DNA of 64,000 bases from a candidate division FCPU426 bacterium (GTDB lineage: Bacteria > Oederibacteriota > Muellerivitia > Muellerivitales > Muellerivitaceae). The position numbers and the translations under genes were made by a program. This document shows positions 19,601 to 51,237 of this stretch, piece after piece; position 1 is the stretch's first letter; every line of letters begins with the position of its first letter. The notes beneath the pieces are model-generated. The model saw only the letters and a list, made by a program, of their open reading frames with translations, was not told where the DNA came from and ran no database searches. The stretch is taken from positions 376,353-440,352 of the forward strand of contig CAWCKJ010000003.1 in NCBI GenBank assembly GCA_963796105.1. The letters run 5' to 3'.

Positions 19601-20469
19601 GGAACCACTCCCTGGCGGTAAGCTTGAATTTCCCTTGGACCGCCACCGGCGACAATGAATTCGGGGTAGAACCCCAGGCGAACCTGCTTTCCCCGGTTAC
19701 CAATTTAACCGGAAAAACCTTGATCGCCCACCTCTGGGTGCCGTCCAACTTCCCCGTTTCGCTCCAGGCGGACATTTATTTTAAAAGCGGTGGATCCTGG
19801 GCCTGGCAAACCGGCCCCTCGACGACCCTGGTGCCAAACACCTGGAACACTCTGACTTTGGACCCAACCGTGTCCTTTAACGTGAGCGGTACTCCTGATA
19901 TCACCAATGTGCTGGGGATCGGGATACAGATACTTTATTCCGGGACTTGGACAGGCACGGTTTACATGGACTCCATGGACGTCCTCTACGTTGGAGGATC
20001 GCCCACCCCGACACCCACGGTTTCACCGACCATAACACCCAGTCCAACCTTGACACCCACCCCGTCCCTGACATCCACCCCCACTCTTACACTCAGTCCC
20101 ACGCCCAGCCCGACCAACAGTCCGACCCCCACCAACACCCCTACTCCGTCCCCTACGCCGACCCTGACGCAAACCCCGACACCCACGACGGCCTGTGTGG
20201 CTCCCCTGCTTTACCCGAATCCCGTCAGGGGAGACACGATGCAAATACGCCTGTCTCCATGCTCGATTACCCCCCACGTATCGGTGAAACTTTTCACGGT
20301 TTCATTCCGGAAAGTGATGGACTTGGATGTCAACCCGATTCCATCGGCCGGGAATTTCTCGCTTCCCCTGTTGGATAATTGGAACAAGCCTCTCACGAAC
20401 GGCTTGTATTACCTGGTGATTACCACGCCCCAAGGAAGGACCATCACCAAGATGCTGGTGATACGGTAA
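16672..20469 (+). CDS. Secreted SASA/SGNH-type carbohydrate esterase (sialate O-acetylesterase-like GQSNM motif) with multiple beta-sandwich/ASH-like domains, Thr/Pro linkers and a T9SS-type C-terminal sorting domain
   Basis: 1265 aa. Signal peptide. [10 protein letters not shown] (nucleophile Ser motif). TPT-rich linkers. Final ~80 aa [15 protein letters not shown]...ITKMLVIR matches the Por secretion C-terminal domain pattern. The true start may be the internal Met (MKPLLS...). Confidence 0.7.
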
Positions 20470-24820: not shown

Positions 24821-24896
<76 letters not shown>

Positions 24897-25028
24897 ACAA
24901 AAAGGGACGCTTAAGAGAGCGAATTATTCTGGAATAACTCAGAATGGTTTTGAAGATTATCAAGACATAAAGGACTTGTCAACCCAAGACACCGGCCTGC
25001 ATTGCCGTGAATAGGCCGATTTGTTATT

Positions 25029-26060
25029 TCAAAAAATGCGGAACTGGTTGAATCTCATGTTAAGAGCGAAGTAAAAAGTATCCTGGCTGGTGGTTTGAAA
25101 ATCAGCGGGGTCATAAGCGATATCGACTGAGAAATCGTTGTCATCAATGGCACGGGTTAAACTGCATCCTAGCGTGTAATTTTCAAAAACATTGCCCGTA
25201 AACTGCGAAAAGGATTGAAACTGGTACCCCCCGCGGACGCAGAACAGTTTCGGGAAGACCCAAACCTCGCCGCCTATGCCCATTTTCATGCCTTGATCCG
25301 AAGGTTTGAAAACCTCTAAACCCAGGTTCATGTCTTTTTGGTTCCCTAGATCCTGATGGATGCCAACCCCCAAGCGGATGAACATGGGAAGGGGATCCGC
25401 GCTCCCGGTCAAAGCCTGGTCGAATTTCATGCTGGTCCCTATGTTCAAGATCGAAAGGCCAGCCTTGATCCCGTAGGGTAATTTTTCCAATGTCGCGCCG
25501 ACGTTAAAACCTAGTGCCTCGGAGGAATAGGACGCTAAATCGCTTTGGATGTATTCCAACGTGCCCCCCAAACGGATCGCGGGTGAGACTTTCGTGGCGA
25601 ATGTCCCCGAAACCAATATGTCGTCCGCGTTAACCGGCGGAGCGCCGTTCTGGTTGTCCACTGGAGGCATATGGCGGTACTCGAAATTGAGCGCAGCCGC
25701 GGTCTCAAAACCAATCGCCGAGGCGAAGGTCAAGTATTCATACTGGATCTGAGCCAAACTATCTAAATGGTAGATGAGTAATTGGGAGGCTTTCAAGTTT
25801 GACAAACCAGCGGGATTATAATCAATGGAATAGGCGTCATCCCCCATTGCGGTATAAACACCGGCCATCCCGGCAGGACGCACTCCCTGAGTGATTTTTA
25901 AAAGGTCAGCCGTCGTGGTACCGACAGTTTGGGAAAAGGTCCGGCAGAACCCCGCCGCCACAAAAAATACAAATAACCATCCGATAATTGATTTTGATCT
26001 GAACATATTTTCTAGTTTCATCATTCCTTCCCTCCTAAAAACCTTATATAAAAAAATCAA
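25029..26060 (-). CDS. PorV-like (T9SS shuttle family, FadL-fold) outer-membrane beta-barrel protein, paralogue 1
   Basis: 343 aa with a signal peptide. N-terminal motif LLKITQGVRPAGMAGVYTAMGDDAYSIDYNPAGLS matches the PorV hallmark (FLxISPxARSxGMGxAGxAxxxDAxSxxWNPAxL). Alternating beta-strand pattern and C-terminal aromatic residue. Confidence 0.5.
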   Translation of the reverse strand: MIFLYKVFRREGMMKLENMFRSKSIIGWLFVFFVAAGFCRTFSQTVGTTTADLLKITQGVRPAGMAGVYTAMGDDAYSIDYNPAGLSNLKASQLLIYHLDSLAQIQYEYLTFASAIGFETAAALNFEYRHMPPVDNQNGAPPVNADDILVSGTFATKVSPAIRLGGTLEYIQSDLASYSSEALGFNVGATLEKLPYGIKAGLSILNIGTSMKFDQALTGSADPLPMFIRLGVGIHQDLGNQKDMNLGLEVFKPSDQGMKMGIGGEVWVFPKLFCVRGGYQFQSFSQFTGNVFENYTLGCSLTRAIDDNDFSVDIAYDPADFQTTSQDTFYFALNMRFNQFRIF

Positions 26061-27028
26061 AATTTGGTGCTGATGGAAATTCGATGCGTGTCCCCGAAGA
26101 CATCCTCGGGAGCGTAAGCATAATCCAGGAAAGCCACTGTGCCGTTGAAATCAAGTCCATAACCGGCCCCTAGCGTGGGGCCCACCCCGCTGAGGGAAGT
26201 GTCCAAAAACTGGTAGCCGCCCCGCAAAGTGGCCCTGTTGCCAATCCATTTCAAATTATACTCTACACCAACCCGCATCCCAACCTTGTCTTCAATGGGT
26301 TGGATGGGGAAAATAGCGTCCACGCTGATGGCGCCGTCATCCTGGTCGGAAAAAAGCTCATAACGCCTGTAAGAAATCCCCGTATTGAGGCTGAAAGGTA
26401 AATCAAAGCTGGATTCCTGCGCTCCAAGGTTTTTAAGCGCTATTCCGACTCTCATTCCGTCAAATGGCGGCAGGACAATCAATCCCGCGTCTAAGCTGAA
26501 AAGGGACGAGGAAAGGGTATCAATCTGTTGTTGCATTAATTTCCCAGTCAAGCCGAAGTGCACCGCTTGGCTGATTTCATGGGCGTATGAAAGGGTGAAT
26601 ATACTGTCGCCGCTGGAAAAAGTCCCGACTGTCTGGCCCTGGTCGTTCGTCCTGGGCATATTTCCCGGCTGGAGAAGGTTCACGCTGATGGCCGCGACCC
26701 CTCCGATGGAGGGGGAGAAAGACCCCACGGGGGTGGCAAAAGCGACGAACTCATAACTCATCTGCTGATAAAGCGAAAGATATGTCAAATTTAATTCATT
26801 AGTGAGAACGCTGGCCAACCCCGCGGGATTGTAATATACAGCCCCGACGTCATCCCCCATGGCCGTATAGGCCTCGCCGCTTCCCATCGCCCTGGATACG
26901 GGAGAAATTTTCAAGAAATCAAAAGCACTACGCCCAGCGTTCGCTGTTTGAGCCTGAGAACTGCCAGAAAGACCGAGGGCAAAGAATAGAAAAGAGAAAC
27001 ATATGCGCTTCAAAAAAACGCGATTCAT
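26057..27028 (-). CDS. PorV-like outer-membrane beta-barrel protein, paralogue 2
   Basis: 323 aa with a signal peptide. FDFLKISPVSRAMGSGEAYTAMGDDVGAVYYNPAGLAS is a very close match to the PorV N-terminal signature. C-terminal ...ISISTKF. 4-bp overlap with paralogue 1. Confidence 0.55.
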   Translation of the reverse strand: MNRVFLKRICFSFLFFALGLSGSSQAQTANAGRSAFDFLKISPVSRAMGSGEAYTAMGDDVGAVYYNPAGLASVLTNELNLTYLSLYQQMSYEFVAFATPVGSFSPSIGGVAAISVNLLQPGNMPRTNDQGQTVGTFSSGDSIFTLSYAHEISQAVHFGLTGKLMQQQIDTLSSSLFSLDAGLIVLPPFDGMRVGIALKNLGAQESSFDLPFSLNTGISYRRYELFSDQDDGAISVDAIFPIQPIEDKVGMRVGVEYNLKWIGNRATLRGGYQFLDTSLSGVGPTLGAGYGLDFNGTVAFLDYAYAPEDVFGDTHRISISTKF

Positions 27029-28591
27029 TTAGGCTCCGTTCCGCGAGCGGGAGATTGCGATCTTGCCAAACTGTTTAGATCCATTTGGTCCCTCAATCAG
27101 ATACAGGTAAAAACCCGAGGAAACTGGATTACTGTCGCCATTCGTCCCATCCCAGATAAAAGTTCCTAGGTTTAAATTGGAAGAAATCAAGAATACACTG
27201 GGATCAGTTGAGTTCAATACTTTCACTAATTCGAGCTTGATGGTGTAAATTTTCAAGGTTGATCCGACCGGCACGCAGGCGAATTTGATACAACCATGCG
27301 AACCGCATGAACCAAGAGTGCCAGAGGGCAAGTGGTTATTCGGTGGACTTGCCTGGAAATCCATTGGATTGGGATAGATGTAGATGGGACAAGGAGTCTG
27401 GGTCGGCGGAGGCGTCATGGTAAATGTACCCGTGGGGGTGATGGTAAAAGTGTTGGTCGGAGTATCGGTGATGGTCGGTGTATAGGTGAAGGTGTATGTG
27501 TATGTGTTTGTAAAAGTGTTAGTGTATGTATAAGTGGGGGTGTAAGTATATGTGTATGTGAATGTGTTGGTAAAGGTCGGGGTGCTAGTCCAAGTATAAG
27601 TATAGGTATAGGTGTTGGTAACAGTCGGAGTGCCGGTGAAGGTACTTGTGAACGGCGGAGTCCAGGTGCCCGTCGGGGTTTGCGTAAGCGTGGGAGTTTG
27701 AGTTGGGCTCAAGGTGGCCGTTGGAGAGTCTGTTTGGGTCGGAGTCTGGGTGAACGTATTGGTTGGAGGCGGGGTCGGGGTGTTCGTTGGAGATAACGTG
27801 GGTGTGAATGTATCTGTATTTGTCGGCGTAGGGGTAATGGTGGGAGTATTCGTTTTAGTGGGTGTTTCAGTGACGGTATAGGTAAAAGTCGGGGTGGGGG
27901 GCACGATGCAGGGCAATGTGCCGGACCACCTCAGGTTGTCCATATAAACCAAGTTGGAATCCATTTCATCAGCAAATCCTGAAGGAATGATGACCTGGAC
28001 CAAACTAACCGGATGTGTCAAACCTGACACATCAACAAAAATCGTCGACCAAGTATTGGCAATTGTGGAACCAGCTAAAATACCGGAAACGGCGCAATTA
28101 TAAACAAGGTCATTATCCGTAACGGCGGTAACCGCACCGCTTGTATCAATTACTGTAATATCCATTTTTCTTCCTATATTGGCAGTATATACATCCAATT
28201 CGATAAAACTTTGGGTCGATTGAACTGTTGCGGCAGTTCCCGGATGAGGATCGGTATAAGTCAATGTAACACCACAATCTTCACAATCCTGGCTTGCATT
28301 GGTATACCCCGTTGTTAAGGGTGAGGTTTCGCCCAGATTCAAATTATCCGGATTTGTGGTGTTATTAGTGAGTACCCCCAATGAGAAAACCGTTCCGGTT
28401 CCCGAGGGGTCGGAATTAGTAACCATCCAACTTGTTATAGCATTGTCGAAATGCTGGTTCGGGTCGTTTGATAGCGGATAACAGGTTATCCCAAAAGCAG
28501 AAGAATATCCGGAAAGGAAAGTCAAAATAAAAAGAATTGAATAACCCAACCCCAGGGATTTAACAGAAAACAAATCTCGTTTTAAAAACAT
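27029..28591 (-). CDS. Secreted protein with long Thr-Pro / Thr-Tyr low-complexity linker and T9SS-type (FlgD-Ig-like) C-terminal sorting domain
   Basis: 520 aa. Signal peptide. ~230-aa N-terminal globular region. ~170 aa of TPTxT/TYTYTYT repeats, visible in the DNA as a GT-rich microsatellite-like tract at 27480-27640. C-terminal IYPNPMDFQAS...GTFIWDGTNGDSNPVSSGFYLYLIEG...KIAISR matches the Por_Secre_tail / FlgD_ig pattern. Confidence 0.55.
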   Translation of the reverse strand: MFLKRDLFSVKSLGLGYSILFILTFLSGYSSAFGITCYPLSNDPNQHFDNAITSWMVTNSDPSGTGTVFSLGVLTNNTTNPDNLNLGETSPLTTGYTNASQDCEDCGVTLTYTDPHPGTAATVQSTQSFIELDVYTANIGRKMDITVIDTSGAVTAVTDNDLVYNCAVSGILAGSTIANTWSTIFVDVSGLTHPVSLVQVIIPSGFADEMDSNLVYMDNLRWSGTLPCIVPPTPTFTYTVTETPTKTNTPTITPTPTNTDTFTPTLSPTNTPTPPPTNTFTQTPTQTDSPTATLSPTQTPTLTQTPTGTWTPPFTSTFTGTPTVTNTYTYTYTWTSTPTFTNTFTYTYTYTPTYTYTNTFTNTYTYTFTYTPTITDTPTNTFTITPTGTFTMTPPPTQTPCPIYIYPNPMDFQASPPNNHLPSGTLGSCGSHGCIKFACVPVGSTLKIYTIKLELVKVLNSTDPSVFLISSNLNLGTFIWDGTNGDSNPVSSGFYLYLIEGPNGSKQFGKIAISRSRNGA

Positions 28592-28600
28592 TCACTTCTC

Positions 28601-31600
28601 CTAAAGCACTATATCCAGCAAATTGAATGCCCCCACCGCGACCAAATCCGACCTTTCGGGTGTCGGTAACCGGTTCAAAGCCGGAATATTGGGTGTTGAA
28701 ACCGTAAGATTCCCCAGAACCTGTTGGTTTTCCGGCGCCAATCGATTCGGAACACCATTGGAAGGAGTTCCTAAAACCGCCTGGCTCTCCGAAGTAGCCC
28801 TATTATCCCTATTTGGAAGGGTTCGCGCAACTGATTCAAAGGCTGAAATTTGTGGGGTTGAAAATATGGGATTCAGCAACGGTGGAGGTTGCTGACTTGT
28901 GACGGTTTGGACTGGAGGGGCAGATGTGGCAAAAAAACCCTGACTTGAGGGTGAAAAGGTGTTCAAAGAGGCGATTTGAAGGGCACTTAGGGTTTCCTGC
29001 AACCTTTGACTCAAAGCTTTTCTACCGACTTCCCTGATCCGATCCTGAATAAGTTGGTCCTGGGTTTCCTGGCTTAAAGCATCCGGTCCGGGACCCACGT
29101 TCGGGATAATCACGAATGGTTTGGCTCCTGTCAATTGGTCCTGCGTATTCTCAGTGGTCGAACCCTGAAGAGGGGCGGAAATATTGATATTAAGGTTTGT
29201 CGTCAAGGGAACAGCCGGCAATGGGGAGGGCGCCACTAACCTGGAATGAACCGGAACTTTGTTCTCAGCGATGACCACTTCACTATTAGTCACATTGGAA
29301 AAGGTGGGTCCCTGGTTTGGTTGAAAGGGATTTAACAGCCCTGGATACGCTGCTTGTCCGGGATTGGGAATATTGGGCATCTGAGCGGGCTCCAAATTGA
29401 CATTGTTTTGAGGCGCAACGGGAGTCTGGATACCTTTTGCTCCCACTTGAGGACTCCTTCGCCTGGAATCAAGACCTATCGTTACGGGTGGATTTTGATT
29501 TGAAAATTGGTTATTTAGGGTCGGTGTTTTTCCTGGGCCAATTTCCTTATTCCCCATGGTTTCGGGATTGGGATTAGAAATGGGCTGAACAGCCTCAGGA
29601 GTTAAAGTTCGAGGATTTAGAGACTCTGTTTCCGGAAGGTTGACGGCTATTAAATTTTGATTCGAAGGCCCGCCAGCCATTACCCGAAAATTCGGCTCCC
29701 GTGTCCCTGTCAGCGCGAATTGCTTAGGTTGGTTCTGTGTACCAGCCTGAGTAGTAGGTCTCACCGCAACCGGCTGGTTTTGAGTCCTTTCAGGATTGGT
29801 TTGGGGCATTTGAACCTTGGTTTCCTTCTGTTCCTCATTGGCGGTTGTTCTCAAATTTTGATTGGCAATGGGTTGAACCGCTTCCGGAGGAGCCGGTCTT
29901 GAAGGCTGATTCGAGTTTACAGGCGCTTGATTAATGATCGGATTAGTTTGAACCGGCCCGCCCGCCACAACCCTGAAATTAGGCTCCCGAGTCGCAGTCC
30001 GAGCTGATTGCGTAGGTTGGTTCTGTGTACTTGTTTGGGAAGTAGGTCTCACCGCAACGGCCTGGTTTTGAGCCCTTCCAGGATTGGTTTGGGGCATTTG
30101 AACCTTGATTTTCGGTTGCTCCTCGTTGGGGGTCGTTCTCAAGTTTTGATTGGCAATGGGTTGGACCCCTTCCGGAGGAGCCGGTCTTGAAGGCTGATTC
30201 GAGTTTACAGACGCTTGATTAACGGCCGGATTAGTTTGAACCGGCCCACCCGCCACAACCCTGAAATTAGGCTCCTGAGTCTCAGTCCGAGCTGATTGCG
30301 CTGGTTGGTTCTGTATACCAGCCTGGGTATTAGGTCTCACCGCAACCGGCTGGTTTTTAACCCTTCCAGGATTGGCTTGGGGCGTTTGAACCCTGGTTTC
30401 CGGTTGCTCCCAGTTGGAGGTTGTTCTCAGGTTTTGATTGGCAATGGGTTGAACCGCTTCTGGAGGCGCCGGTCTCGAAGGCGGATTCTCGTTTACCGGC
30501 GTTTGATAAACGGCCGGATTAGTTTGAACCGGCCCGCCCGCCACAACCCTGAAATTAGGCTCCCGAGTCGCAGTCCGCGCGGATTGCGCTGGTTGGTTCT
30601 GTGGACCTGTTTGGGTATTAGGTCTCACCGCAACCGGTTGATTTTGAACCCCTCCAGAATTTGCATGGGGCGTTTGAACCCTAGTTTCCGGCCGCTCCTT
30701 GTTAGTAGTTGTTCTCAAGTTTTGATTGGCAATGGGTTGAACCGCTTCCGGAGGCGCCGGTCTTGAAAGCGGATTCTCGTTTACCGGAGCTTGATTAACG
30801 GCCGGATTAGATTGAACCGGCCCACCCGCCACAACCCTGAAATTAGGCTCCCGAGTCACAGTCCACGCGGGTTGCGTTGGCTGCTTCTGAGTTCCAGCCT
30901 GGATATCAGGCACCACCGCAACCGGCTGGTTTTGAATCCTTCCAGGATTGGTTTGGGGCGTTTGAGCCCTGGTTTCCGGACGCTCATTGTTGACGGTTGT
31001 TCTCGAGTTTTGATCGACAATCGGTTGGATTGTTTCAGGATTCCCTGGTTTTAGAGCCGCCCCGGAGGACTCAATCCTAGAATTGGAATTGGTCGCGGCA
31101 GGGATTACGGTTCCCCGAGCAACGGCTTGCGCGCTTTCAAATTGAAGGTTATTACTTCCGGTACCAGGTTGGATGAGATTTATTTCAACCCCGCCTTTTC
31201 CCGCCATATTGGGAAAGGCCTGGCCCCGATTAACGGGACCCTCCAAGCGTGAATGACCTGTTGTTTCCGCTGATACGGTTTTGGCATTAGCCCCGGGAAT
31301 TTTGGAATTTTCACCCACAACTCTTGAATTTCGAGCGTCATTGAAACGGTTATTGGGAAGATTTGTTTCAGCTGGATTCCCGCTGGGATGAATAATATTT
31401 TGATTACCGGCCGTCTGACCAGTCACCCCGCCCTCCATTACAGGGAAATCCTGTTTTGAAAATCGATCCGCCGGCGGAGGAAGAAGAAGATTTTTTAATT
31501 GATTCAATCCGCTTTGAAGGGTTTGAACCCCCTGGATGGCGTCTTGGATGACCATCGGGAGGGGTCCGAATTTCTGGGTTAAAAAATTAACGGCTTTTAC

Positions 31601-31756
31601 TGAAAGTTTTTCATCCCGTGACGCCTCCGGCTTGGGGTCCTGATTGATTTTCCTCAAGGCGGGGTCTGTCCCCAGAACAAGGGGTTGAACCGTTAGATCG
31701 TCCTTTCTCCTGACGGAACCGATGGAGTTATTTCCAATGAATGAGTATCCAGCCAT
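28601..31756 (-). CDS. Large Pro/Gln/Asn-rich tandem-repeat protein of unknown function located immediately downstream of flbD
   Basis: 1051 aa with no clear signal peptide. About five tandem 96-aa units (REPNFRVVAGGPVQTNPAVNQAPVNENP.SRPAPPEAVQPIANQNLRTT.N.E.PETRVQTPQ.NPGR.QNQPVAVRPNTQ.G.QNQP.QSARTAT). Unique ~235-aa N-terminal and ~300-aa C-terminal regions. Confidence 0.5.
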   Translation of the reverse strand: MAGYSFIGNNSIGSVRRKDDLTVQPLVLGTDPALRKINQDPKPEASRDEKLSVKAVNFLTQKFGPLPMVIQDAIQGVQTLQSGLNQLKNLLLPPPADRFSKQDFPVMEGGVTGQTAGNQNIIHPSGNPAETNLPNNRFNDARNSRVVGENSKIPGANAKTVSAETTGHSRLEGPVNRGQAFPNMAGKGGVEINLIQPGTGSNNLQFESAQAVARGTVIPAATNSNSRIESSGAALKPGNPETIQPIVDQNSRTTVNNERPETRAQTPQTNPGRIQNQPVAVVPDIQAGTQKQPTQPAWTVTREPNFRVVAGGPVQSNPAVNQAPVNENPLSRPAPPEAVQPIANQNLRTTTNKERPETRVQTPHANSGGVQNQPVAVRPNTQTGPQNQPAQSARTATREPNFRVVAGGPVQTNPAVYQTPVNENPPSRPAPPEAVQPIANQNLRTTSNWEQPETRVQTPQANPGRVKNQPVAVRPNTQAGIQNQPAQSARTETQEPNFRVVAGGPVQTNPAVNQASVNSNQPSRPAPPEGVQPIANQNLRTTPNEEQPKIKVQMPQTNPGRAQNQAVAVRPTSQTSTQNQPTQSARTATREPNFRVVAGGPVQTNPIINQAPVNSNQPSRPAPPEAVQPIANQNLRTTANEEQKETKVQMPQTNPERTQNQPVAVRPTTQAGTQNQPKQFALTGTREPNFRVMAGGPSNQNLIAVNLPETESLNPRTLTPEAVQPISNPNPETMGNKEIGPGKTPTLNNQFSNQNPPVTIGLDSRRRSPQVGAKGIQTPVAPQNNVNLEPAQMPNIPNPGQAAYPGLLNPFQPNQGPTFSNVTNSEVVIAENKVPVHSRLVAPSPLPAVPLTTNLNINISAPLQGSTTENTQDQLTGAKPFVIIPNVGPGPDALSQETQDQLIQDRIREVGRKALSQRLQETLSALQIASLNTFSPSSQGFFATSAPPVQTVTSQQPPPLLNPIFSTPQISAFESVARTLPNRDNRATSESQAVLGTPSNGVPNRLAPENQQVLGNLTVSTPNIPALNRLPTPERSDLVAVGAFNLLDIVL
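29600..31050. repeat. Tandem direct repeat, unit 288 bp, ~4.5-5 copies (coding repeats inside 28601..31756)
   Basis: The string ccacaaccctgaaattaggctcccgag recurs at 29966, 30254, 30542 and 30830, with a degenerate copy near 29690. Antisense ORFs at 29657, 30008, 30296 and 30791 on the plus strand are shadows of the same periodicity. Confidence 0.8.
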
Positions 31757-31788: not shown

Positions 31789-31989
31789 TTAATGGTTTTC
31801 CACCACTTTGGGATAACAGCGGGACTTATACTCGACGATATGTCCTACTACTTGGGAGATGGTTTCCTTGACGGTCATTTTCTTGCCGTTTTGGAGTGTA
31901 AGTATCGTCTCAGGTGAGCTCTCCAGAAAAAGAATTAAATCGGCGTTGACATAAACTTCCCGTCCGTCTAATCGGGTTACTGGTATCAT
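31789..31989 (-). CDS. flbD: Flagellar protein FlbD
   Basis: MIPVTRLDGREVYVNADLILFLESSPETILTLQNGKKMTVKETISQVVGHIVEYK matches FlbD (MIKLTRLNG.EFYLNPDLIE.IE.TPDTVITLTNGKK). The internal ATG at 31989 with an upstream GGTGAGG Shine-Dalgarno is preferred over the longer ORF from 32043. Confidence 0.75.
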   Translation of the reverse strand: MIPVTRLDGREVYVNADLILFLESSPETILTLQNGKKMTVKETISQVVGHIVEYKSRCYPKVVENH

Positions 31990-32223
31990 TGCCTCACCTT
32001 CAATGCCTTCAACTTCTATTTTATCACAAGATACCCAGGCCATGGCCCAATTACAAGACCAGTTGACTCATGCCGACATCGATGGAGCAACTTGATAAAC
32101 CCAAATTTTTCCAAGTGAGTCTAAAAAAAACGGCGCCCCCCGTGAAGGAAAGCGCCGCCTATTCCAACAAAACCGTGCTTCCGGTTGCCCGGAAGCACGG
32201 CCTCAATCTTTAAAACTCAGTTA

Positions 32224-34269: not shown

Positions 34270-34680
34270 CTAAACAATCACCGCGCTATCGATATTCGTG
34301 AAGACATTTTCTTTCATACTGCCCCCATCCAGCGCGGTTATGACCGTCCGATTCGTTACGCTGACAATGAAGGCCTGACTATCCATCACCAGAAGGGACT
34401 GTTTCGCGCCCTTGGCCGCGGCCTTATTCACCCCGGTCGTGATGCGATCCATATCATCCTCTGAAAGCTGGATGTTTCTCAGGCTCAACCGCTCCTTCGC
34501 GTGAGCGGAAAACTTCAAAGACTCTCCCTTTCCCACCGCCGTCTGGAAAACCGTCTGAAAAGGCTGTACGCCCTCCGCCGCCCGGCTCGCCTGCTGCTGG
34601 ATCACCTTCAACTGAGCCTGGCTTTGGACCTTGTCCACGGGATTGAGATGGGAATCGTTAAAGTTCACTTGTTGAACCAC
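34270..34680 (-). CDS. Flagellar operon protein (TIGR02530-like, found between flgD and flgE in Firmicutes-type loci)
   Basis: 136 aa. The KFSAHAKERLSLRNIQLSEDDMDRI block resembles this family (KFSKHAQERL.QRNI.LS). Position between flgD and flgE is conserved synteny. Confidence 0.5.
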   Translation of the reverse strand: MVQQVNFNDSHLNPVDKVQSQAQLKVIQQQASRAAEGVQPFQTVFQTAVGKGESLKFSAHAKERLSLRNIQLSEDDMDRITTGVNKAAAKGAKQSLLVMDSQAFIVSVTNRTVITALDGGSMKENVFTNIDSAVIV

Positions 34681-47492: not shown

Positions 47493-49067
47493 TCAACGGC
47501 TATGCACTGGCACAGCAGTTCCAGCTGCTTGAATAACGGTACTATAGGGTAATGCAACAGCACTTATTTCTTTGGATCTTGAACTTTCTGTTCCATCGTT
47601 TCCAACTGTCGTTAAAGAAAAGAAATATCTTTGTCCGACTTTTAACTTCCGAACCAGATAGGTTGGAACATTACTAATGGGCTGAGCATTTACTTTTTCA
47701 AACCGCCCACCTGAAACTTCTGAAATGTAAATATTATACCCTTTTGCACTGATCTTTCCCGGATCAGCCAACCCCGCTATTCCGGCTTGCTTAGCAATAT
47801 CAATGACACCCTCATTTTGAAGCTCGCTTTGAACCACAACCGGTGCGCCAGGAGCAGATGTCGTGCCAGCTATTATCTCTCTTGAATATTGACTTTCAAC
47901 TGGAGGTACAGTATTGGTTATTGAACTTACCACAAAATAATAATGAGTATTTTTCTCTAATCCACGTAGCGAATAATAATTTGCCTTTACCGGTTTTTGG
48001 TTGATTTTTACATAACCTCCACCAGAAGTTTTAGTGAAATAAACGTTATATCCAGCCAAGGAAAGGGACGGTGAATTTACCCACCTAAGGGTAATAATAT
48101 CGCCATCCACTGATGCATTTAAACCTTCCGGAATAAAACTTTTCACTTTCCCCAAGAAAGACTCGCCAAACCGCCAATTGGCAGAGATCCGATGCGTTGC
48201 TCCTAGAAATTCAGCATGACCCATATAAGCATAATCAATTCCCCAAGATTTTGAACGATAACTGATCCCAGCAGTAAACTGTCCAGGAAGTGTCATAAAA
48301 TCACTATACCCGGTTCTGATTCCAAGTTGGTCCTCAAAAAACCAGCCTTCAATACCTGCGTGCAACAGTGTATGATCCCCTACTGTTTGGTCACTAATGC
48401 TTTCAAATTCCCAAGCTGTAACTAAATCGTCAGTAAACTCATAACTAAATCCACCCCTGACACTCAATGCAACCGGATCAACGTTTCCACCCTGCCAACG
48501 AATAGTTGTGTCCACATCTTGAGCGCATAAACCAATATTTATTTGTTTTCCATATCGAGGATTCAAAATTGGCATATGATATAGAAAACCCAGATCAAGG
48601 CCCCAACCAGTAGCTTGAAGTCCTGGTTGATTTGACGAATCCGCACCATAAAGTTTTAAATTCAGCCCGCAAGAAATAGACTTATCAATCGCTAATGGCG
48701 CTGCAAAAGACCCATAATAAATCCGTTCATTCAAGGAGCCGTCAGTAAAAAAATGTTGTTGAGTGGCAATTGCCCACGCCATTTGATCGCCAAAAGGCTG
48801 CACATACACGCCTTCAAAATCATCCTCTTTTCCGTTTAAAAGAATTGCGGCCATTCCTGATATTTCAGGGCGTAAAACTTGAACAAGACCAGCAGGATTG
48901 AAAAAAACCGCATCACCAGAATCCGCTACTGTTGTAAATGCCCCACCCATTCCCAAAGGTCGAGCACCAATACCCGTAACGCCGCCTTTAGCAAAAGTCT
49001 GTGCTTTCACAGAAGTTATCGGCAGCAAAAGCAATAATAGGATGGCAGCTAAATTCCTAATAACCAT
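47493..49067 (-). CDS. PorV-like outer-membrane beta-barrel fused to two C-terminal fibronectin type III-like domains (paralogue 3), within the flagellar rod/ring operon
   Basis: 524 aa. Signal peptide. VTGIGARPLGMGGAFTTVADSGDAVFFNPAGLVQV matches the PorV N-terminal signature. The C-terminal ~200 aa contain two Fn3-like units (IITLRWVNSPSLSLAGYNVYFTKTSGGGYVKIN...NTHYYFVVSSIT and KGYNIYISEVSGGRFEKVNAQPIS...GQRYFFSLTTV). 11-bp overlap with the upstream gene. Confidence 0.5.
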   Translation of the reverse strand: MVIRNLAAILLLLLLPITSVKAQTFAKGGVTGIGARPLGMGGAFTTVADSGDAVFFNPAGLVQVLRPEISGMAAILLNGKEDDFEGVYVQPFGDQMAWAIATQQHFFTDGSLNERIYYGSFAAPLAIDKSISCGLNLKLYGADSSNQPGLQATGWGLDLGFLYHMPILNPRYGKQINIGLCAQDVDTTIRWQGGNVDPVALSVRGGFSYEFTDDLVTAWEFESISDQTVGDHTLLHAGIEGWFFEDQLGIRTGYSDFMTLPGQFTAGISYRSKSWGIDYAYMGHAEFLGATHRISANWRFGESFLGKVKSFIPEGLNASVDGDIITLRWVNSPSLSLAGYNVYFTKTSGGGYVKINQKPVKANYYSLRGLEKNTHYYFVVSSITNTVPPVESQYSREIIAGTTSAPGAPVVVQSELQNEGVIDIAKQAGIAGLADPGKISAKGYNIYISEVSGGRFEKVNAQPISNVPTYLVRKLKVGQRYFFSLTTVGNDGTESSRSKEISAVALPYSTVIQAAGTAVPVHSR

Positions 49068-51237
49068 TCGGGCCTACCTTCTCACCATTTATATGGATGT
49101 CCGAAAGCTGCAAAAACTGTAACTGATTTATTTTCCCAACAGCAAAATTAGCAGCCACTTGGGTTGGAGTAATTATAACCAATTCATTTTTTCCATAATA
49201 TACACGAGTTGATATCTCTTTTAAACCTGTTCCTACTGAATTCACACCCGTTTTTACCACTTCTCCCGCTTCTTGGAATATATAAGGGACATATGTCAAA
49301 TGGGAACGATAATTTATAATAATAATAGCGTCCCCATTAAGGTTTTTATCAAAATGAGCATTTAGCACTTGATCTGGGTTCAAATGGTTAAATCCCATTA
49401 CCGGAACATTACCAGCTTCCGGATAACCCGTATTATTGGCAGAATCAGTCGGGTTAACATTTTTCTGCTGAGCATTAGCGGTATTGGATACTAATTCCAT
49501 GGATTCAAGCATTTTCTTGAGATTTTCCTGAGCCAAAGTTGTAAGTTTTTTCCGTTCTTGCTCAAGTAATGATTGTTGTTGTCGGCGAATGTTGATAAGT
49601 TTAGCCGAGTCTTTAATTGATCCCTCATTTACAGAGGATAATATTTCAATTGTTTGAACGGGGGTTGAACCAATATGTTCTAATTGATCTTGGACTTGAA
49701 AAGCCCAAGTATAAACACCCGGCGGTAAGGGTTGATACTCATCATCTTCACCACTCCAAAGCAATTTAGTTGTAGGTGATCCAACCCCTCTTAAACCCCT
49801 CACCAAATGGTTGTTTTTATCATAAATTAATACGCTCCAACGATTAACTGTAACATCCTCAGTTGTATCTAAATGAAATTCCGCTTTTTCACCTTGAGCA
49901 GGAAAAAATGAGGCCGGTTGAACATAAGCTCCTACTTTAGGTGGCGGCAACTCCTCTCCTCCGCCAAAGCGATAAGCCATTCCAATATAAAAATTCTCAA
50001 AATTTATACCACCCGTGTCATATGAACCAATAGCTGATCCCGCTGTTACACTCGCAGAAGGAGAAACTGGCAAAAGATAAGCCGCATCTGTTTGAAAATC
50101 TCCGTTGAAAGCTCTTAAGCTTAATCCTAATGAAAAAATTCCGGGACGACTTAAAGGCGTTGAATAACCCCCACGTACGGCCATAACGTCCCTAAAAAAC
50201 CAGAATTCTGTTCCGAAACGAAGATATTTATTATCGGAATCCGAAAATCTCGGATCAGAAATTTGGTCAAAATCAATTGCAGTAATATTTCGTATTTTAA
50301 ATAAGTAAGCATTTTTATACGCAAATCCTAATGTGATTTCTGGCGGAATGTTAGCTTGATATCCTGGTCCCACATTAAAAGTAATGGGGGTAGCACCAGG
50401 AGGAATGTACAAGATATTAGAACCCGCAGTTAGGCCATTTGGATATTGCGCCAAACCCACTAAATCGTTCAAAGCTAAACCAATTCTAAATTCCTCTGAA
50501 TATTTAGTTATTGGAATTCTATAAAGGATACCAACATCCACTCCAAATCCGGTAACTTGAGTCGCATTATTAAGTGCCTTTGCCAAACTAGGGTCATTTC
50601 CAAAATATCGTATGTAATAAGGATCGTTTGTAATTCTTTTTATATTAACTCCAACCGAAAAATTCCTAACAGCAGAAAAACGAGCCGCATAAGAAAGAAG
50701 AATTTCACTTTGTTGAAAACTCGGATTTTGAAGATAACTAAATTGCGACGATGTCGGTTGATCTAAAAAATTATTTCCAATATATAAATTGCGTTGATCG
50801 TGAAAGGGCCGGAAAAGAGATATCCCTAATGTATTTTCTTTTGCAAGTGGAGCAATAAATTGGAAGGAAGCGTACCATGGAAATCCAAATCCAGGCTTTC
50901 CATTAACCTTGTCCATGAAATAATCGGGAGCACTTGAGATTGATAATTCGTAAGATGAAAGCTGAGCCAAACCAGCAACATTCCAATAAGCTGCTGATGC
51001 ATCATCCGAAATTGCGACAAATGCCCCACCCATTCCAATAGCCCTGGGACCAATTCCTGAGGTTTCCTTCCATCCGAAAATAGGGTTGATCGTTTGAGAA
51101 TAAGCAACATTTGCAAATAAAATAATAAATAAAAAACCAATTAATAAATTAAGATTTCGTTTATGCGCATTCGAGTACCGAATAATTCTTTTATTTAATT
51201 TTTGCACCTTTATCATCACCCTTCTTGTTTTACCCAA
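49057..51237 (-). CDS. Large PorV-like outer-membrane beta-barrel protein with C-terminal extension (paralogue 4), within the flagellar operon
   Basis: 726 aa. Signal/TM segment then TSGIGPRAIGMGGAFVAISDDASAAYWNVAGLAQL matches the PorV-like motif. ~400-aa barrel region, then ~300-aa C-terminal region of unknown fold. Confidence 0.45.
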   Translation of the reverse strand: MGKTRRVMIKVQKLNKRIIRYSNAHKRNLNLLIGFLFIILFANVAYSQTINPIFGWKETSGIGPRAIGMGGAFVAISDDASAAYWNVAGLAQLSSYELSISSAPDYFMDKVNGKPGFGFPWYASFQFIAPLAKENTLGISLFRPFHDQRNLYIGNNFLDQPTSSQFSYLQNPSFQQSEILLSYAARFSAVRNFSVGVNIKRITNDPYYIRYFGNDPSLAKALNNATQVTGFGVDVGILYRIPITKYSEEFRIGLALNDLVGLAQYPNGLTAGSNILYIPPGATPITFNVGPGYQANIPPEITLGFAYKNAYLFKIRNITAIDFDQISDPRFSDSDNKYLRFGTEFWFFRDVMAVRGGYSTPLSRPGIFSLGLSLRAFNGDFQTDAAYLLPVSPSASVTAGSAIGSYDTGGINFENFYIGMAYRFGGGEELPPPKVGAYVQPASFFPAQGEKAEFHLDTTEDVTVNRWSVLIYDKNNHLVRGLRGVGSPTTKLLWSGEDDEYQPLPPGVYTWAFQVQDQLEHIGSTPVQTIEILSSVNEGSIKDSAKLINIRRQQQSLLEQERKKLTTLAQENLKKMLESMELVSNTANAQQKNVNPTDSANNTGYPEAGNVPVMGFNHLNPDQVLNAHFDKNLNGDAIIIINYRSHLTYVPYIFQEAGEVVKTGVNSVGTGLKEISTRVYYGKNELVIITPTQVAANFAVGKINQLQFLQLSDIHINGEKVGPNGY

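What the first reader, a model, noticed from the sequence alone, without database searches (positions are those of the whole stretch)
25029..28591. Second PorV-like pair plus a T9SS/FlgD-Ig-type CTD cargo protein at the 3' end of the flagellar locus, next to tRNA-Phe
Two tandem PorV-like barrels (343 and 323 aa) share the same N-terminal signature, FLKISPVSRAMGSGEAYTAMGDDVGAVYYNPAGL being a near-textbook PorV motif. They directly follow a secreted protein whose C-terminus (IYPNPMDF...FIWDGTNGDSNPVSSGFYLYLIEG) matches the Por secretion tail / FlgD-Ig-like fold. This is a PorV-plus-cargo arrangement. It continues the flbD-containing flagellar operon without an obvious break and ends 130 bp from a tRNA gene. 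The cargo protein's linker is an unusual Thr-Tyr dipeptide repeat (TYTYTYT...), encoded by a GT-rich microsatellite-like tract at 27480-27640 that could undergo slipped-strand length variation.
Basis: partly seen in the sequence, partly recalled or inferred. Interest (0 to 1): 0.7.

Follow-up and report, generated by a model that had tools for sequence, protein, structure and literature searches.

The report
Surface lectin with two PorV-like anchors
In an uncultured soil/peat bacterium of candidate phylum FCPU426, a secreted sugar-binding-type protein on a long threonine stalk is encoded with two PorV/PorQ-type outer-membrane barrels in a unit headed by the flagellar gene flbD; such parts are usually described only for Bacteroidota-type (type IX) secretion, so finding them conserved here is moderately interesting.

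Summary
The three ORFs exist as described. Both barrels pass NCBI's curated PorV/PorQ-family model but fail the PorV and PorQ equivalog cutoffs. Barrel A's best structural matches are solved PorV chains. The "cargo" has four parts: a signal peptide, a CBM-like jelly-roll domain, a 178-aa linker with Thr at every second position, and a 121-aa C-terminal domain. That domain belongs to the T9SS-CTD/FlgD-Ig superfamily only below threshold; its closest match is the uncleaved CTD of PorZ.

The flagellar operon does break: strong terminators follow flgE in the window and in 16/16 related loci. The next unit starts with its own extended −10 element and an overlooked flbD gene. The "microsatellite" has no perfect tandem tract above 16 nt.

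The order flgE, terminator, flbD, (Pro-rich protein), cargo, barrel A, barrel B, tRNA-Phe is conserved across 24 FCPU426-type loci. CTD-protein/PorV-family-barrel pairs also occur in Elusimicrobia, Margulisiibacteriota, Spirochaetia and Krumholzibacteriota MAGs.

Best reading: a dedicated module in which the barrels anchor the protein by its CTD, as PorQ anchors PorZ. Whether these genomes hold T9SS core genes could not be tested.

The parts
32128..32199 (-). Two tandem Rho-independent terminator hairpins directly after the flgE stop (32224). They mark the end of the flagellar hook operon.
   Evidence: 14-bp stem with 8 GC pairs followed by a T-run, at 32160-32128; a second hairpin of -26.7 kcal/mol at about 32199-32170. 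An equivalent hairpin (-19 to -32 kcal/mol plus a T-run) lies 29-69 nt after flgE in 16/16 related loci.
32018..32028 (-). Extended -10 sigma70-type promoter element TGTGATAAAAT, about 30 nt upstream of flbD.
   Evidence: The same TG-n-TA-n-AAT element (GTGGTAAAAT, GTGATAAAAT, GTGGTAGAAT) was seen by eye in the 9 sequences (window + 8 loci) where flbD has its own intergenic region. No sigma28 or sigma54 consensus was found. Function is inferred, not shown.
31789..31989 (-). flbD/swrD (66 aa), the first gene of the unit. It was missed as a separate ORF by the 120-aa ORF list.
   Evidence: PF06289 FlbD at 77.3 bits (cutoff 24.7); found by tblastn in 18 FCPU426-type loci at 59-82% identity, always just upstream of the Pro-rich protein or the cargo.
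28601..31756 (-). 1051-aa Pro/Gln-rich protein with no visible signal peptide. It contains 4.7 copies of a 288-bp repeat at 29667-31027. The gene is variable: a long ORF is present in only part of the related loci.
   Evidence: Only weak similarity to the counterparts: a shared N-terminal motif (BLASTP E 6e-5 and 4e-4), a further 77-aa match to L004 within the C-terminal fifth (E 2.7e-6), and a shared C-terminal '..LDLVL' ending seen by eye. No Pfam or NCBIfam hit. A 9-nt gap separates it from the cargo start.
28490..28591 (-). Cargo residues 1-34: Sec-type signal peptide (read by eye).
   Evidence: Sequence: a basic N-terminus, a hydrophobic core and ...SSAFG. The model shows a helix at 13-32. 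Orthologues have the same layout. No signal-peptide predictor was available.
27929..28489 (-). Cargo residues 35-221: beta-jelly-roll domain of carbohydrate-binding-module type.
27395..27928 (-). Cargo residues 222-399: (Thr-X)n linker. It is predicted disordered, and all Thr sit in one alternating register.
   Evidence: 79 Thr in one register and 0 in the other, with a strict (T-X) run of 80 aa; pLDDT about 30; linker length is 41-302 aa in orthologues, and the longest perfect DNA tandem tract is 16 nt. TRF period 6 with 65% matches.
27032..27394 (-). Cargo residues 400-520: long C-terminal domain (CTD) of the T9SS-CTD/FlgD-Ig superfamily, with a Cys-containing insert after the YPNP strand.
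   Evidence: PorZ C-terminus in 18/19 orthologues (best 1.4e-8; window 1e-4), FlgD_ig in 17/19 and TIGR04183 in 5/19, none reaching its curated cut-off; the best PDB sequence match is PorZ 5M11; seven strands at pLDDT 70-86; about 20 dedicated orthologue clusters inside a superfamily of 5,531 clusters.
26057..27028 (-). Barrel A (323 aa), a PorV/PorQ-family outer-membrane beta-barrel. Its start codon abuts the cargo stop.
   Evidence: NF033709 at 123.2 bits (cutoff 90), PorQ 108.3 against 220, PorV 37.2 against 250; best folds are PorV 8GL6_F and 6H3I_F (E 1e-8, TM 0.61), then OmpG and FadL. PorV is the only PDB sequence hit; about 79 orthologues at 51-86% identity, then a drop to about 30%.
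25029..26024 (-). Barrel B (331 aa from the ATG at 26024; the TTG-start ORF runs to 26060), a second PorV/PorQ-family barrel and an ancient paralogue of barrel A.
   Evidence: NF033709 at 122.9 bits. Pfam PorV 28.4 against 27, and UPF0164 26.5 against 21.4; 25% identity to barrel A. Searches support the ATG start. Present in all 24 loci.
24821..24896 (-). tRNA-Phe(GAA), the conserved downstream neighbour. A sigma70-like promoter (TTGACA-N17-TAATCT) lies in the 132-nt gap.
   Evidence: (tRNA-Phe follows barrel B in 17 of 20 loci).
47493..51237 (-). The 'first pair': two overlapping ORFs (726 and 524 aa). Their N-termini are PorV-family-like barrels, fused to a weak FlgD_ig-like domain and an fn3 domain respectively. 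They lie just upstream of flgF.
   Evidence: NF033709 at 88.2 and 57.8 bits, both below the cutoff of 90. E 1e-8 to 1e-13 against the barrel A and B profiles; fn3, and FlgD_ig at E=0.0096.
20173..20466 (+). Conventional type A CTD at the end of a 1265-aa esterase/mannanase-GBD protein (16672-20469). It shows that this genome has other CTD-tagged proteins.
   Evidence: TIGR04183 at 24.1 bits (cutoff 23); the sequence ...LLYPNPV...[23 protein letters not shown] follows a Thr/Pro linker. One search gives the N-terminal domains.

Best explanation
This is a dedicated module made of a surface protein and its outer-membrane anchor. It is built from the same parts as the attachment and shuttle pairs of type IX secretion.

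Shown: the cargo consists of a signal peptide, a CBM-type jelly-roll head, a disordered linker of about 180 aa with Thr at every second position, and a long C-terminal Ig-like domain.

Inferred: the cargo is exported by Sec and reaches the cell surface. Its CTD is probably not cleaved and docks non-covalently onto barrel A, with barrel B as a second subunit. This is the way PorZ is held by PorQ, and the way type B CTD proteins are held by PorP/SprF-like barrels. The stalk, possibly glycosylated, then holds a glycan-binding head away from the cell.

Shown: the genes are translationally coupled. They lie in a unit headed by flbD, separated from the flgE operon by terminators, and the arrangement is conserved across the phylum.

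Inferred: the unit is co-expressed with motility functions.

Not known: how the cargo crosses the outer membrane. No SprA-type translocon could be looked for.
For: Family and fold. Both barrels exceed the curated PorV/PorQ-family cutoff. Barrel A's best PDB fold matches are PorV in the SprA translocon complexes, and PorV is its only PDB sequence hit.

The CTD. It is related to T9SS CTDs and is closest to PorZ's uncleaved CTD. The model shows seven strands at pLDDT 70-86, matching the 3+4 sandwich described for CTDs (PMC11285876). It spans about 113-121 aa. [quoted passage not shown]

One dedicated copy per genome. The CTD profile gives a single strong hit per locus and about 20 dedicated clusters worldwide.

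Gene linkage. The cargo/barrel A/barrel B order holds in 24 loci. The cargo-to-barrel A junction is -4 to +5 nt in 21 of 22 loci.

Recurrence elsewhere. A protein with a TIGR04183 CTD above cutoff sits next to a PorV-family barrel in Margulisiibacteriota, Elusimicrobia, Spirochaetia and Krumholzibacteriota MAGs.

Co-variation. CTD and barrel A divergences correlate at r=0.83, and at 0.74 after controlling for FlgE (p=0.0005).

Precedents. PorQ-PorZ (PMC10947112), PorP/SprF with cognate type B substrates (PMC9143113, PMC12618676), and the PorV shuttle (PMC5562754).

Against: No physical interaction was shown or modelled, because no multimer prediction was available. The barrel model has only moderate confidence (pLDDT 61). 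The CTD fold was never matched on its own, since the fold searches were dominated by the N-domain. The window's CTD fails every curated CTD threshold. The barrels fail the PorV and PorQ equivalog cutoffs. The PorV/FadL superfamily also contains uptake channels. Co-variation of neighbouring genes can simply reflect a shared local history; N-domain and barrel A also correlate at 0.61. A route across the outer membrane is not identified. Published surveys place T9SS genes only in FCB phyla (PMC11285876). The need for two barrels is unexplained.
Confidence: 0.5

Rival explanations
1. The module is a flagellum-associated outer-membrane structure. In this reading the barrels, and possibly the Ig/CBM-domain protein, form part of an outer-membrane collar, disk or bushing around the flagellum, so the module is a flagellar accessory rather than a general surface anchor.
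For: The unit is headed by the flagellar gene flbD and follows flgE in every FCPU426-type locus with enough flank. A second pair of PorV-family-like barrels, fused to Ig-like and fn3 domains, lies in the flagellar gene cluster just upstream of flgF. In an Elusimicrobia MAG the CTD-protein/barrel pair lies next to flbD-motA-motB, in convergent orientation. The CTD shares its fold family with the FlgD Ig domain. The N-domain matches the spirochaete sheath protein FlaA1.
Confidence: 0.2
2. The genome has a complete type IX secretion system, the barrels are its PorV-type shuttles, and the 520-aa protein is an ordinary T9SS cargo whose CTD is recognised by SprA and then removed.
For: The same window encodes a 1265-aa esterase-like protein whose C-terminus passes TIGR04183 (24.1 against 23 bits), so a general CTD-dependent pathway probably exists. 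Both barrels are PorV/PorQ-family members. The best fold match is PorV bound to SprA.
Against: Both barrels are far below the PorV equivalog cutoff. The cargo CTD is a single-copy, family-specific, unusually long variant closest to the uncleaved PorZ CTD, not a generic type A tag. Tight one-to-one genetic coupling is typical of cognate anchors, not of the general PorV shuttle (PMC12618676). FCPU426 is not an FCB phylum, and the literature reports no T9SS genes outside FCB (PMC11285876). No core T9SS gene was seen in the sequence examined here: the 64-kb window (a few smaller ORFs were not scanned), 9.7 kb beyond its start (precomputed Pfam marks), and the few neighbours of the third barrel paralogue that were scanned.
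Confidence: 0.12
3. The barrels are FadL-type uptake channels for hydrophobic or other small substrates, and the upstream protein is a surface substrate-capture protein, comparable to a surface glycan-binding protein working with a transporter.
For: PorV_fam belongs to the FadL superfamily. Barrel B passes Pfam UPF0164, the Treponema FadL-like family. Barrel A hits Toluene_X weakly. FadL, TodX and TbuX are among the fold matches. The N-domain resembles CBMs and Bacteroides SGBP-B.
Against: The PorV chains outrank FadL in the fold search. The NCBIfam PorV/PorQ family model scores far higher than the FadL-type Pfam hit. FadL-type channels carry hydrophobic molecules, not glycans. This model does not explain why the partner carries a T9SS-type CTD, nor why that pairing recurs across phyla.
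Confidence: 0.08
4. The genes are neighbours by descent only, with no functional relation between cargo and barrels.
For: The whole block, including tRNA-Phe, is syntenic in the phylum, so gene order alone could be inherited.
Against: Overlapping or abutting stop and start codons occur in 21 of 22 loci. Independent recurrence of CTD-protein/barrel adjacency occurs in at least four other phyla with unrelated N-terminal domains. Co-variation exceeds that with FlgE.
Confidence: 0.03

Closest known systems
PorQ-PorZ subcomplex of the Porphyromonas gingivalis T9SS attachment complex
   Same: A PorV/PorQ-family outer-membrane barrel is paired with a secreted protein whose long CTD is not cleaved and which stays on the surface bound to the barrel (PMC10947112, PMC11285876). 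Here the cargo CTD's best profile and PDB matches are the PorZ C-terminus. Both barrels score higher against the PorQ model than against the PorV model.
   Different: The barrels are far below the PorQ equivalog cutoff (108 and 73 against 220 bits). The cargo has no PorZ beta-propeller body; the PorZ match covers only model positions 686-755. There are two barrels instead of one. The organism is outside the FCB group. The genes share a unit with flbD. No PorU, PorV, SprA or A-LPS context is known.
PorP/SprF-like barrels with cognate type B CTD substrates (SprB-SprF, PG1035-PorP)
   Same: One substrate pairs with one dedicated outer-membrane barrel encoded next to it, and the barrel serves as a specialised shuttle or anchor (PMC9143113, PMC12618676). 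The logic is the same as the tight cargo/barrel A coupling seen here.
   Different: The barrel family differs: PorP/SprF versus PorV/PorQ. The CTD here is not type B; CHU_C hits are only weak, with the best at 1.1e-3. Gene order and phylum also differ.
PorV, the general shuttle for type A CTD cargo (Flavobacterium johnsoniae; PDB 6H3I and 8GL6)
   Same: It is the best structural match for barrel A and its only PDB sequence hit. The N-terminal conserved motif and the NF033709 family are shared.
   Different: Identity is about 14%. The equivalog score is 37-53 against a cutoff of 250. PorV serves many cargos and is not encoded next to each one. The CTD here is a single-copy variant.
FadL family and Treponema UPF0164 outer-membrane proteins
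   Same: They share the 14-stranded barrel superfamily with an N-terminal NPA-type motif. Barrel B passes Pfam UPF0164, and FadL, TodX and TbuX appear among the fold matches. They also show that this superfamily exists in bacteria without a described T9SS.
   Different: Those proteins are uptake channels with no CTD-bearing partner. The PorV/PorQ family model fits much better here.
Outer-membrane accessory proteins encoded in flagellar loci, such as Vibrio FlgO/FlgP/FlgT (H-ring) and the Campylobacter basal disk (from my own knowledge, not tested here)
   Same: Non-core outer-membrane proteins are encoded with flagellar genes. That is comparable to the flbD-headed unit here and to the barrel pair upstream of flgF.
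   Different: No sequence or fold relation was tested or found. Terminators separate this unit from flgE. The same kind of module occurs without flagellar neighbours in other phyla.

Membership tests
PorV/PorQ family (NCBIfam NF033709) | Score at or above the curated family cutoff of 90 bits | tested here: met
   Barrel B scores 122.9 bits and barrel A 123.2 bits, both full-length matches.
PorV/PorQ family (NCBIfam NF033709) | 14-stranded FadL/PorV-type outer-membrane barrel fold | tested here: met
   The barrel A model (pLDDT 61, pTM 0.59; about 14 long strands) best matches PorV 8GL6_F and 6H3I_F (E 1e-8, TM 0.61), followed by OmpG and FadL. Confidence is moderate. Barrel B was not modelled.
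T9SS PorV (NF033710, equivalog) | Score at or above 250 bits | tested here: not met
   53.0 bits (barrel B) and 37.2 bits (barrel A).
T9SS PorQ (NF033711, equivalog) | Score at or above 220 bits | tested here: not met
   73.0 bits (barrel B) and 108.3 bits (barrel A), matching only the N-terminal two thirds of the model.
T9SS type A CTD (TIGR04183 / Pfam PF18962 Por_Secre_tail) | Profile score above the curated cutoff (23 and 27 bits) | tested here: not met
   The window cargo gets no hit at E<=1 as a whole protein or at E<=0.1 as the CTD alone. Among 19 orthologues, 5 hit TIGR04183 (best 3.9e-4) and 1 hits PF18962. By contrast, the esterase-like protein at 16672-20469 does pass, with 24.1 bits.
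T9SS type A CTD (TIGR04183 / Pfam PF18962 Por_Secre_tail) | Seven-stranded Ig-like beta-sandwich at the extreme C-terminus of a protein with a Sec signal peptide | tested here: inconclusive
   The model has seven strands at residues 435-513 with pLDDT 70-86. The YPNP, G-x-Y and GK-x-A-I motifs are visible in the sequence. However, no fold search of the CTD alone was possible, and the signal peptide was judged by eye.
FlgD Ig-like domain (Pfam PF13860) | Score at or above 27 bits | tested here: not met
   The window CTD scores 14.5 bits (E=0.034). 17 of 19 orthologues hit the model, and none is shown to reach the cutoff (best E 9.7e-6).
Type IX secretion system (whole system) | Core genes sprA/sov, porK/gldK, porL/gldL, porM/gldM, porN/gldN and porU in the same genome | not testable with these tools
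   Only the 64-kb window, 9.7 kb beyond its start and about 20-kb loci from related MAGs were available. No T9SS core gene appeared among the ORFs scanned; a few smaller window ORFs were not scanned.
Flagellar hook (flgE) operon | Co-transcription with flgE, meaning no terminator or promoter in between | tested here: not met
   Terminator hairpins follow flgE in the window and in 16/16 loci. A conserved extended -10 element lies upstream of flbD. Read-through cannot be excluded without RNA data.
FlbD/SwrD (Pfam PF06289) | Score at or above 24.7 bits | tested here: met
   The ORF at 31789-31989 scores 77.3 bits (E=6.8e-22).
Slipped-strand (phase-variable) simple sequence repeat | A long perfect tandem tract of a short unit | tested here: not met
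   The longest perfect tandem tract is 16 nt, or 2.7 hexamer units. The TRF array has 65% matches. Read-level heterogeneity could not be tested.
Carbohydrate-binding module (fold level only) | Beta-jelly-roll fold matching solved CBMs, plus ligand-binding residues | tested here: inconclusive

The most novel reading that the evidence does not exclude
Pairs of a CTD protein and a PorV/PorQ-family barrel may form an autonomous surface-display or export module that is older and more widespread than the Bacteroidota T9SS. Such pairs are present in FCPU426, Elusimicrobia, Margulisiibacteriota and Spirochaetia. In that reading they work without SprA and the PorKLMN motor, with the barrel pair itself receiving or even passing the CTD protein. 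In FCPU426 the module would additionally be tied to the flagellar programme through flbD, linking surface glycan binding to swimming.
Probability: 0.15. Interest if true: 0.8.

Novelty: new variant of a known kind. Interest (0 to 1): 0.52.

Why it matters
Papers on type IX secretion state that its genes and its CTD-tagged proteins are confined to Bacteroidota and other FCB phyla (PMC11285876). Here a cognate CTD-protein/PorV-family-barrel pair is conserved throughout a non-FCB candidate phylum, and similar pairs appear in MAGs of at least four other phyla.

If complete genomes of these groups lack SprA and PorKLMN, the pairs would be a free-standing anchoring or export device, and a plausible evolutionary precursor of the T9SS attachment and shuttle complexes. 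If the genomes do have the core genes, the known range of T9SS expands.

Either result can be obtained from existing MAGs. The flbD linkage, the two-barrel arrangement and the strictly alternating Thr stalk are further features with no described counterpart that I could find.

Tried and rejected
(1) Microsatellite or phase variation. Rejected on TRF at 65% matches and a longest perfect tract of 16 nt.

(2) Sigma28 or sigma54 promoter upstream of flbD.

(4) Assembly chimera as the cause of the GC3 gradient. An independent 21.7-kb contig spans the shift, so this is unlikely. The gradient remains unexplained.

(5) Fold search of the CTD alone. This was not possible, because model ids cover the whole chain and the N-domain dominated both searches.

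(6) Detecting T9SS core genes. I looked at neighbours of the third barrel paralogue (PpiD-like, Obg, ProB), at 9.7 kb beyond the window start and at the distant-phylum loci. None was found, but the sample is far too small to conclude absence.

(7) Literature on FCPU426 biology or on PorV outside FCB. Only surveys and 16S placement near Goldbacteria turned up.

(8) Source names for the proteins. None is recorded.

(9) First version of the co-variation test. It used a poorly chosen FlgE control and was repeated with BLAST-verified FlgE.

(10) The CTD profile search of the word-indexed database returned mostly truncated gene calls. The exhaustive search was needed to see the superfamily.

Full report
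WHAT IS THERE

On the minus strand the window holds ORFs at 27029-28591 (520 aa), 26057-27028 (323 aa) and 25029-26060 (343 aa from a TTG start). tRNA-Phe(GAA) lies at 24821-24896. Upstream is a large flagellar cluster running FliY/N, FliO, FliP, FliR, FlhB, FlhA, FlhF, FliA, FapA, then FlgF, FlgG, FlgA, FlgH, FlgI, FlgJ, FlgM, FlgN, FlgK, FliK, FlgD and FlgE.

Barrel B almost certainly starts at the ATG at 26024, giving 331 aa. An AGGAGG ribosome-binding site precedes that codon, orthologue N-termini agree, and public gene calls are 330 and 331 aa.

THE BARRELS

Both pass NCBI's curated PorV/PorQ family model NF033709 (122.9 and 123.2 bits; cutoff 90). Both fall far short of the PorV equivalog (53 and 37 against 250) and the PorQ equivalog (73 and 108 against 220). 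Barrel B also passes Pfam PorV and UPF0164.

They are ancient paralogues at 25% identity (E=9e-22), and both are kept in every related locus.

An AlphaFold model of barrel A has moderate confidence (pLDDT 61, about 14 long strands). Its best PDB matches are the PorV chains of the F. johnsoniae translocon complexes 8GL6 and 6H3I (E 1e-8, TM 0.61), ahead of OmpG and FadL-family barrels. PorV is also the only PDB sequence that the barrel A profile hits (E=0.047).

THE CARGO

The model and the sequence give four parts.
- A signal peptide (judged by eye).
- A disordered linker at residues 222-399.
- A seven-stranded C-terminal domain at residues 435-513 (pLDDT 70-86).

All 79 Thr occupy one alternating register, with none in the other, and one strict (Thr-X) run is 80 residues long. 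X is mostly Pro, Tyr, Phe or Asn. At the DNA level there is no microsatellite: TRF reports period 6 at 65% matches, and the longest perfect tandem tract is 16 nt. Linker length does differ between orthologues, from 41 to 302 aa.

IS THE C-TERMINUS A T9SS CTD?

It carries the familiar motifs (YPNP..., G-F-Y-L-Y, GK-I-A-I-S-R) plus a Cys-containing insert. The window protein nevertheless gets no TIGR04183 or Por_Secre_tail hit. FlgD_ig scores only 14.5 bits against a cutoff of 27.

Across 19 orthologues the most consistent match is the C-terminal domain of PorZ (18/19, best 1.4e-8). FlgD_ig follows (17/19), then CHU_C (15/19), with TIGR04183 in 5/19. PorZ (5M11) is the top PDB sequence match.

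An exhaustive profile search found about 20 clusters of true orthologues inside a superfamily of 5,531 clusters. Many of those clusters match exactly at the C-terminus of proteins of very different sizes. Distant hits in the indexed database carry precomputed Por_Secre_tail, FlgD_ig or CHU_C domains.

So the domain is a divergent, family-specific, single-copy-per-locus member of the CTD/FlgD-Ig superfamily. At about 113-121 aa it is longer than cleaved CTDs (67-88 aa) and resembles the uncleaved CTDs of PorZ and PorU (96 and 108 aa; PMC11285876).

OPERON STRUCTURE

Two strong terminator hairpins lie at 32199-32128, right after flgE. An equivalent hairpin (-19 to -32 kcal/mol plus a T-run) follows flgE in all 16 related loci tested.

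The supposed intergenic gap contains a 66-aa flbD/swrD gene at 31789-31989 (PF06289, 77.3 bits). An extended -10 element, TGTGATAAAAT, precedes it at 32018-32028, and the same element recurs in the eight related loci where flbD has its own upstream region. No sigma28 or sigma54 consensus was found.

The unit is therefore flbD, a 1051-aa Pro/Gln-rich repeat protein (28601-31756), cargo, barrel A and barrel B. The gaps are 32, 9, 0 and 32 nt, with good ribosome-binding sites.

CONSERVATION

Barrel A has about 79 orthologues at 51-86% identity, followed by a drop to about 30%. The genomic loci holding them are MAGs labelled candidate division FCPU426, with one labelled Firestonebacteria and several only as 'uncultured bacterium' or 'proteobacterium'. 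NCBI does not place FCPU426 in the FCB group.

In 24 loci the order cargo/barrel A/barrel B is kept. Where the flank suffices, FliK-FlgD-Flagellar_put-FlgE lies upstream. flbD sits directly before the cargo or the Pro-rich gene in 18 loci. tRNA-Phe follows barrel B in 17 of 20 loci.

Two elements vary. A Kelch-repeat lipoprotein lies between the flgE terminator and flbD in many loci but not in the window. The Pro-rich protein is long in the window but short or absent elsewhere.

The cargo-to-barrel A junction is -4 to +5 nt in 21 of 22 loci. Pairwise divergences of CTD and barrel A correlate at r=0.83, and at 0.74 after controlling for FlgE (p=0.0005). This fits the module evolving as a unit but is not specific proof of contact.

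BEYOND THE PHYLUM

The protein directly next to a PorV-family barrel carries a TIGR04183 CTD above cutoff in four MAGs:
- Margulisiibacteriota (30.3 bits);
- Elusimicrobia (33.2 bits, on a PARCEL-repeat protein);
- Spirochaetia (42.8 bits, also Pfam 29 against 27, on an FG-GAP protein);
- Krumholzibacteriota (36.3 bits).

Only the Elusimicrobia example has flagellar neighbours: flbD-motA-motB in convergent orientation.

The window itself encodes a 1265-aa esterase-like protein (16672-20469) with a Thr/Pro linker and a short, conventional type A CTD that passes TIGR04183 (24.1 against 23 bits). CTD-tagged proteins are therefore not unique to the flbD unit.

INTERPRETATION

The best-supported reading (confidence about 0.5) is a cognate surface-protein/anchor module. 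It works like PorQ-PorZ, or like the PorP/SprF pairs with their type B substrates (PMC10947112, PMC9143113, PMC12618676). The long, probably uncleaved CTD docks on barrel A, perhaps in a barrel A/B heteromer, and the Thr stalk displays a glycan-binding-type head.

Shown here: family membership of the barrels, the superfamily relation of the CTD, the domain layout, the coupling and conservation, and the recurrence in other phyla. Inferred: the physical docking, the surface location, CTD retention and glycan binding. Unknown: the route across the outer membrane.

The main rival (about 0.2) is a flagellum-associated outer-membrane structure. It is suggested by the flbD linkage and by a second pair of PorV-family-like barrels (88.2 and 57.8 bits, below cutoff) fused to Ig-like and fn3 domains just upstream of flgF. 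The two ideas are not mutually exclusive.

A literal full-T9SS reading (about 0.12) and a FadL-type uptake reading (about 0.08) remain possible.

LIMITS

I could not search the source genome for sprA, porKLMN or porU. No multimer modelling was available. The CTD fold was not matched separately. The barrel model is of moderate quality.

The literature I could search contains nothing on secretion or flagella in FCPU426, and it states that T9SS genes are absent outside FCB phyla.

VERDICT

This is a real, conserved module. It is a new variant of the known pairing between a CTD protein and its cognate barrel, in an unexpected phylum and genetic context. Interest is moderate. The key question, whether the module is autonomous or part of a full T9SS, can be answered from existing MAGs.

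Noticed in passing
window 1-64000 (gene by gene): There is a strong GC3 gradient. It is 0.23-0.29 in flhF through flgI, about 0.40 in flgK and fliK, 0.52-0.62 in flgD and flgE, 0.46-0.59 in the flbD unit, and 0.76-0.87 in housekeeping genes (gltB, tgt, HMGL-like). An independent 21.7-kb contig spans the shift, and other FCPU426 loci lack such a gradient. Foreign origin of the flagellar genes is possible but untested.
   Followed up: partly
window 16672-20469 (+): A 1265-aa secreted protein carries a SASA-type carbohydrate esterase domain, a mannanase galactose-binding-like domain, a Thr/Pro linker and a C-terminal type A sorting domain that passes TIGR04183 (24.1 against 23 bits).
   Followed up: yes
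window 47493-51237 (-): Two overlapping ORFs (726 and 524 aa) have N-terminal PorV-family-like barrels (88.2 and 57.8 bits, below the cutoff of 90). They are followed by a weak FlgD_ig-like domain and an fn3 domain respectively. They lie just upstream of flgF (35-nt gap), downstream of fapA.
   Followed up: partly
window 28601-31756 (-); repeats at 29667-31027: A 1051-aa Pro/Gln-rich protein has no visible signal peptide and contains 4.7 copies of a 288-bp (96-aa) repeat at 86% matches. It shares only an N-terminal motif and a '..LDLVL' C-terminal ending with counterparts in some FCPU426 loci, and there is no long ORF in that position in others. Its function is unknown.
   Followed up: partly
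window 27395-27928 (-): In the cargo linker, all 79 threonines fall in one alternating register over 178 residues, with a strict (Thr-X) run of 80 aa. The part nearest the CTD is enriched in Thr-Tyr and Thr-Phe. Aromatic residues make up 15% of the linker here, against 3-11% in orthologues. The reason for strict period-2 spacing is unexplained.
   Followed up: partly
L003:5379-6374 and equivalents in many FCPU426 loci: A Kelch-repeat beta-propeller protein of about 340 aa has a lipoprotein-like N-terminus (judged by eye). It is inserted between the flgE terminator and flbD in many loci and is absent from the window.
   Followed up: partly
L035:8300-10924 (also L032, L033, L036, L041): A third conserved PorV/PorQ-family paralogue (306 aa, 125 bits) occurs in FCPU426 and Firestonebacteria MAGs. 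An unannotated protein of 450-570 aa precedes it. The pair lies between a PpiD/SurA-like isomerase gene and obg.
   Followed up: partly
L026:2800-10711 (Margulisiibacteriota MAG): Two consecutive pairs of an Ig/CTD protein followed by a PorV-family barrel. The first is a TIG+FlgD_ig protein followed by a barrel whose C-terminal part weakly matches RlpA-family models. The second is a 1302-aa CTD protein followed by a barrel with TPR-like matches.
   Followed up: partly
window 24897-25028 (-): A good sigma70-type promoter (TTGACA-N17-TAATCT) lies in the gap between barrel B and tRNA-Phe, so the tRNA probably has its own promoter.
   Followed up: no
window 14224-15483 (-): A 419-aa protein has seven YadA head repeats and a YadA stalk motif, making it a trimeric-autotransporter-like adhesin. 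Its C-terminal anchor was not examined.
   Followed up: no
window 34270-34680 (-): A 136-aa ORF between flgD and flgE matches the short Pfam 'Flagellar_put' motif (PF12611, 55 bits). It is 62-82% identical across FCPU426 loci, making it one of the most conserved genes in the block.
   Followed up: no
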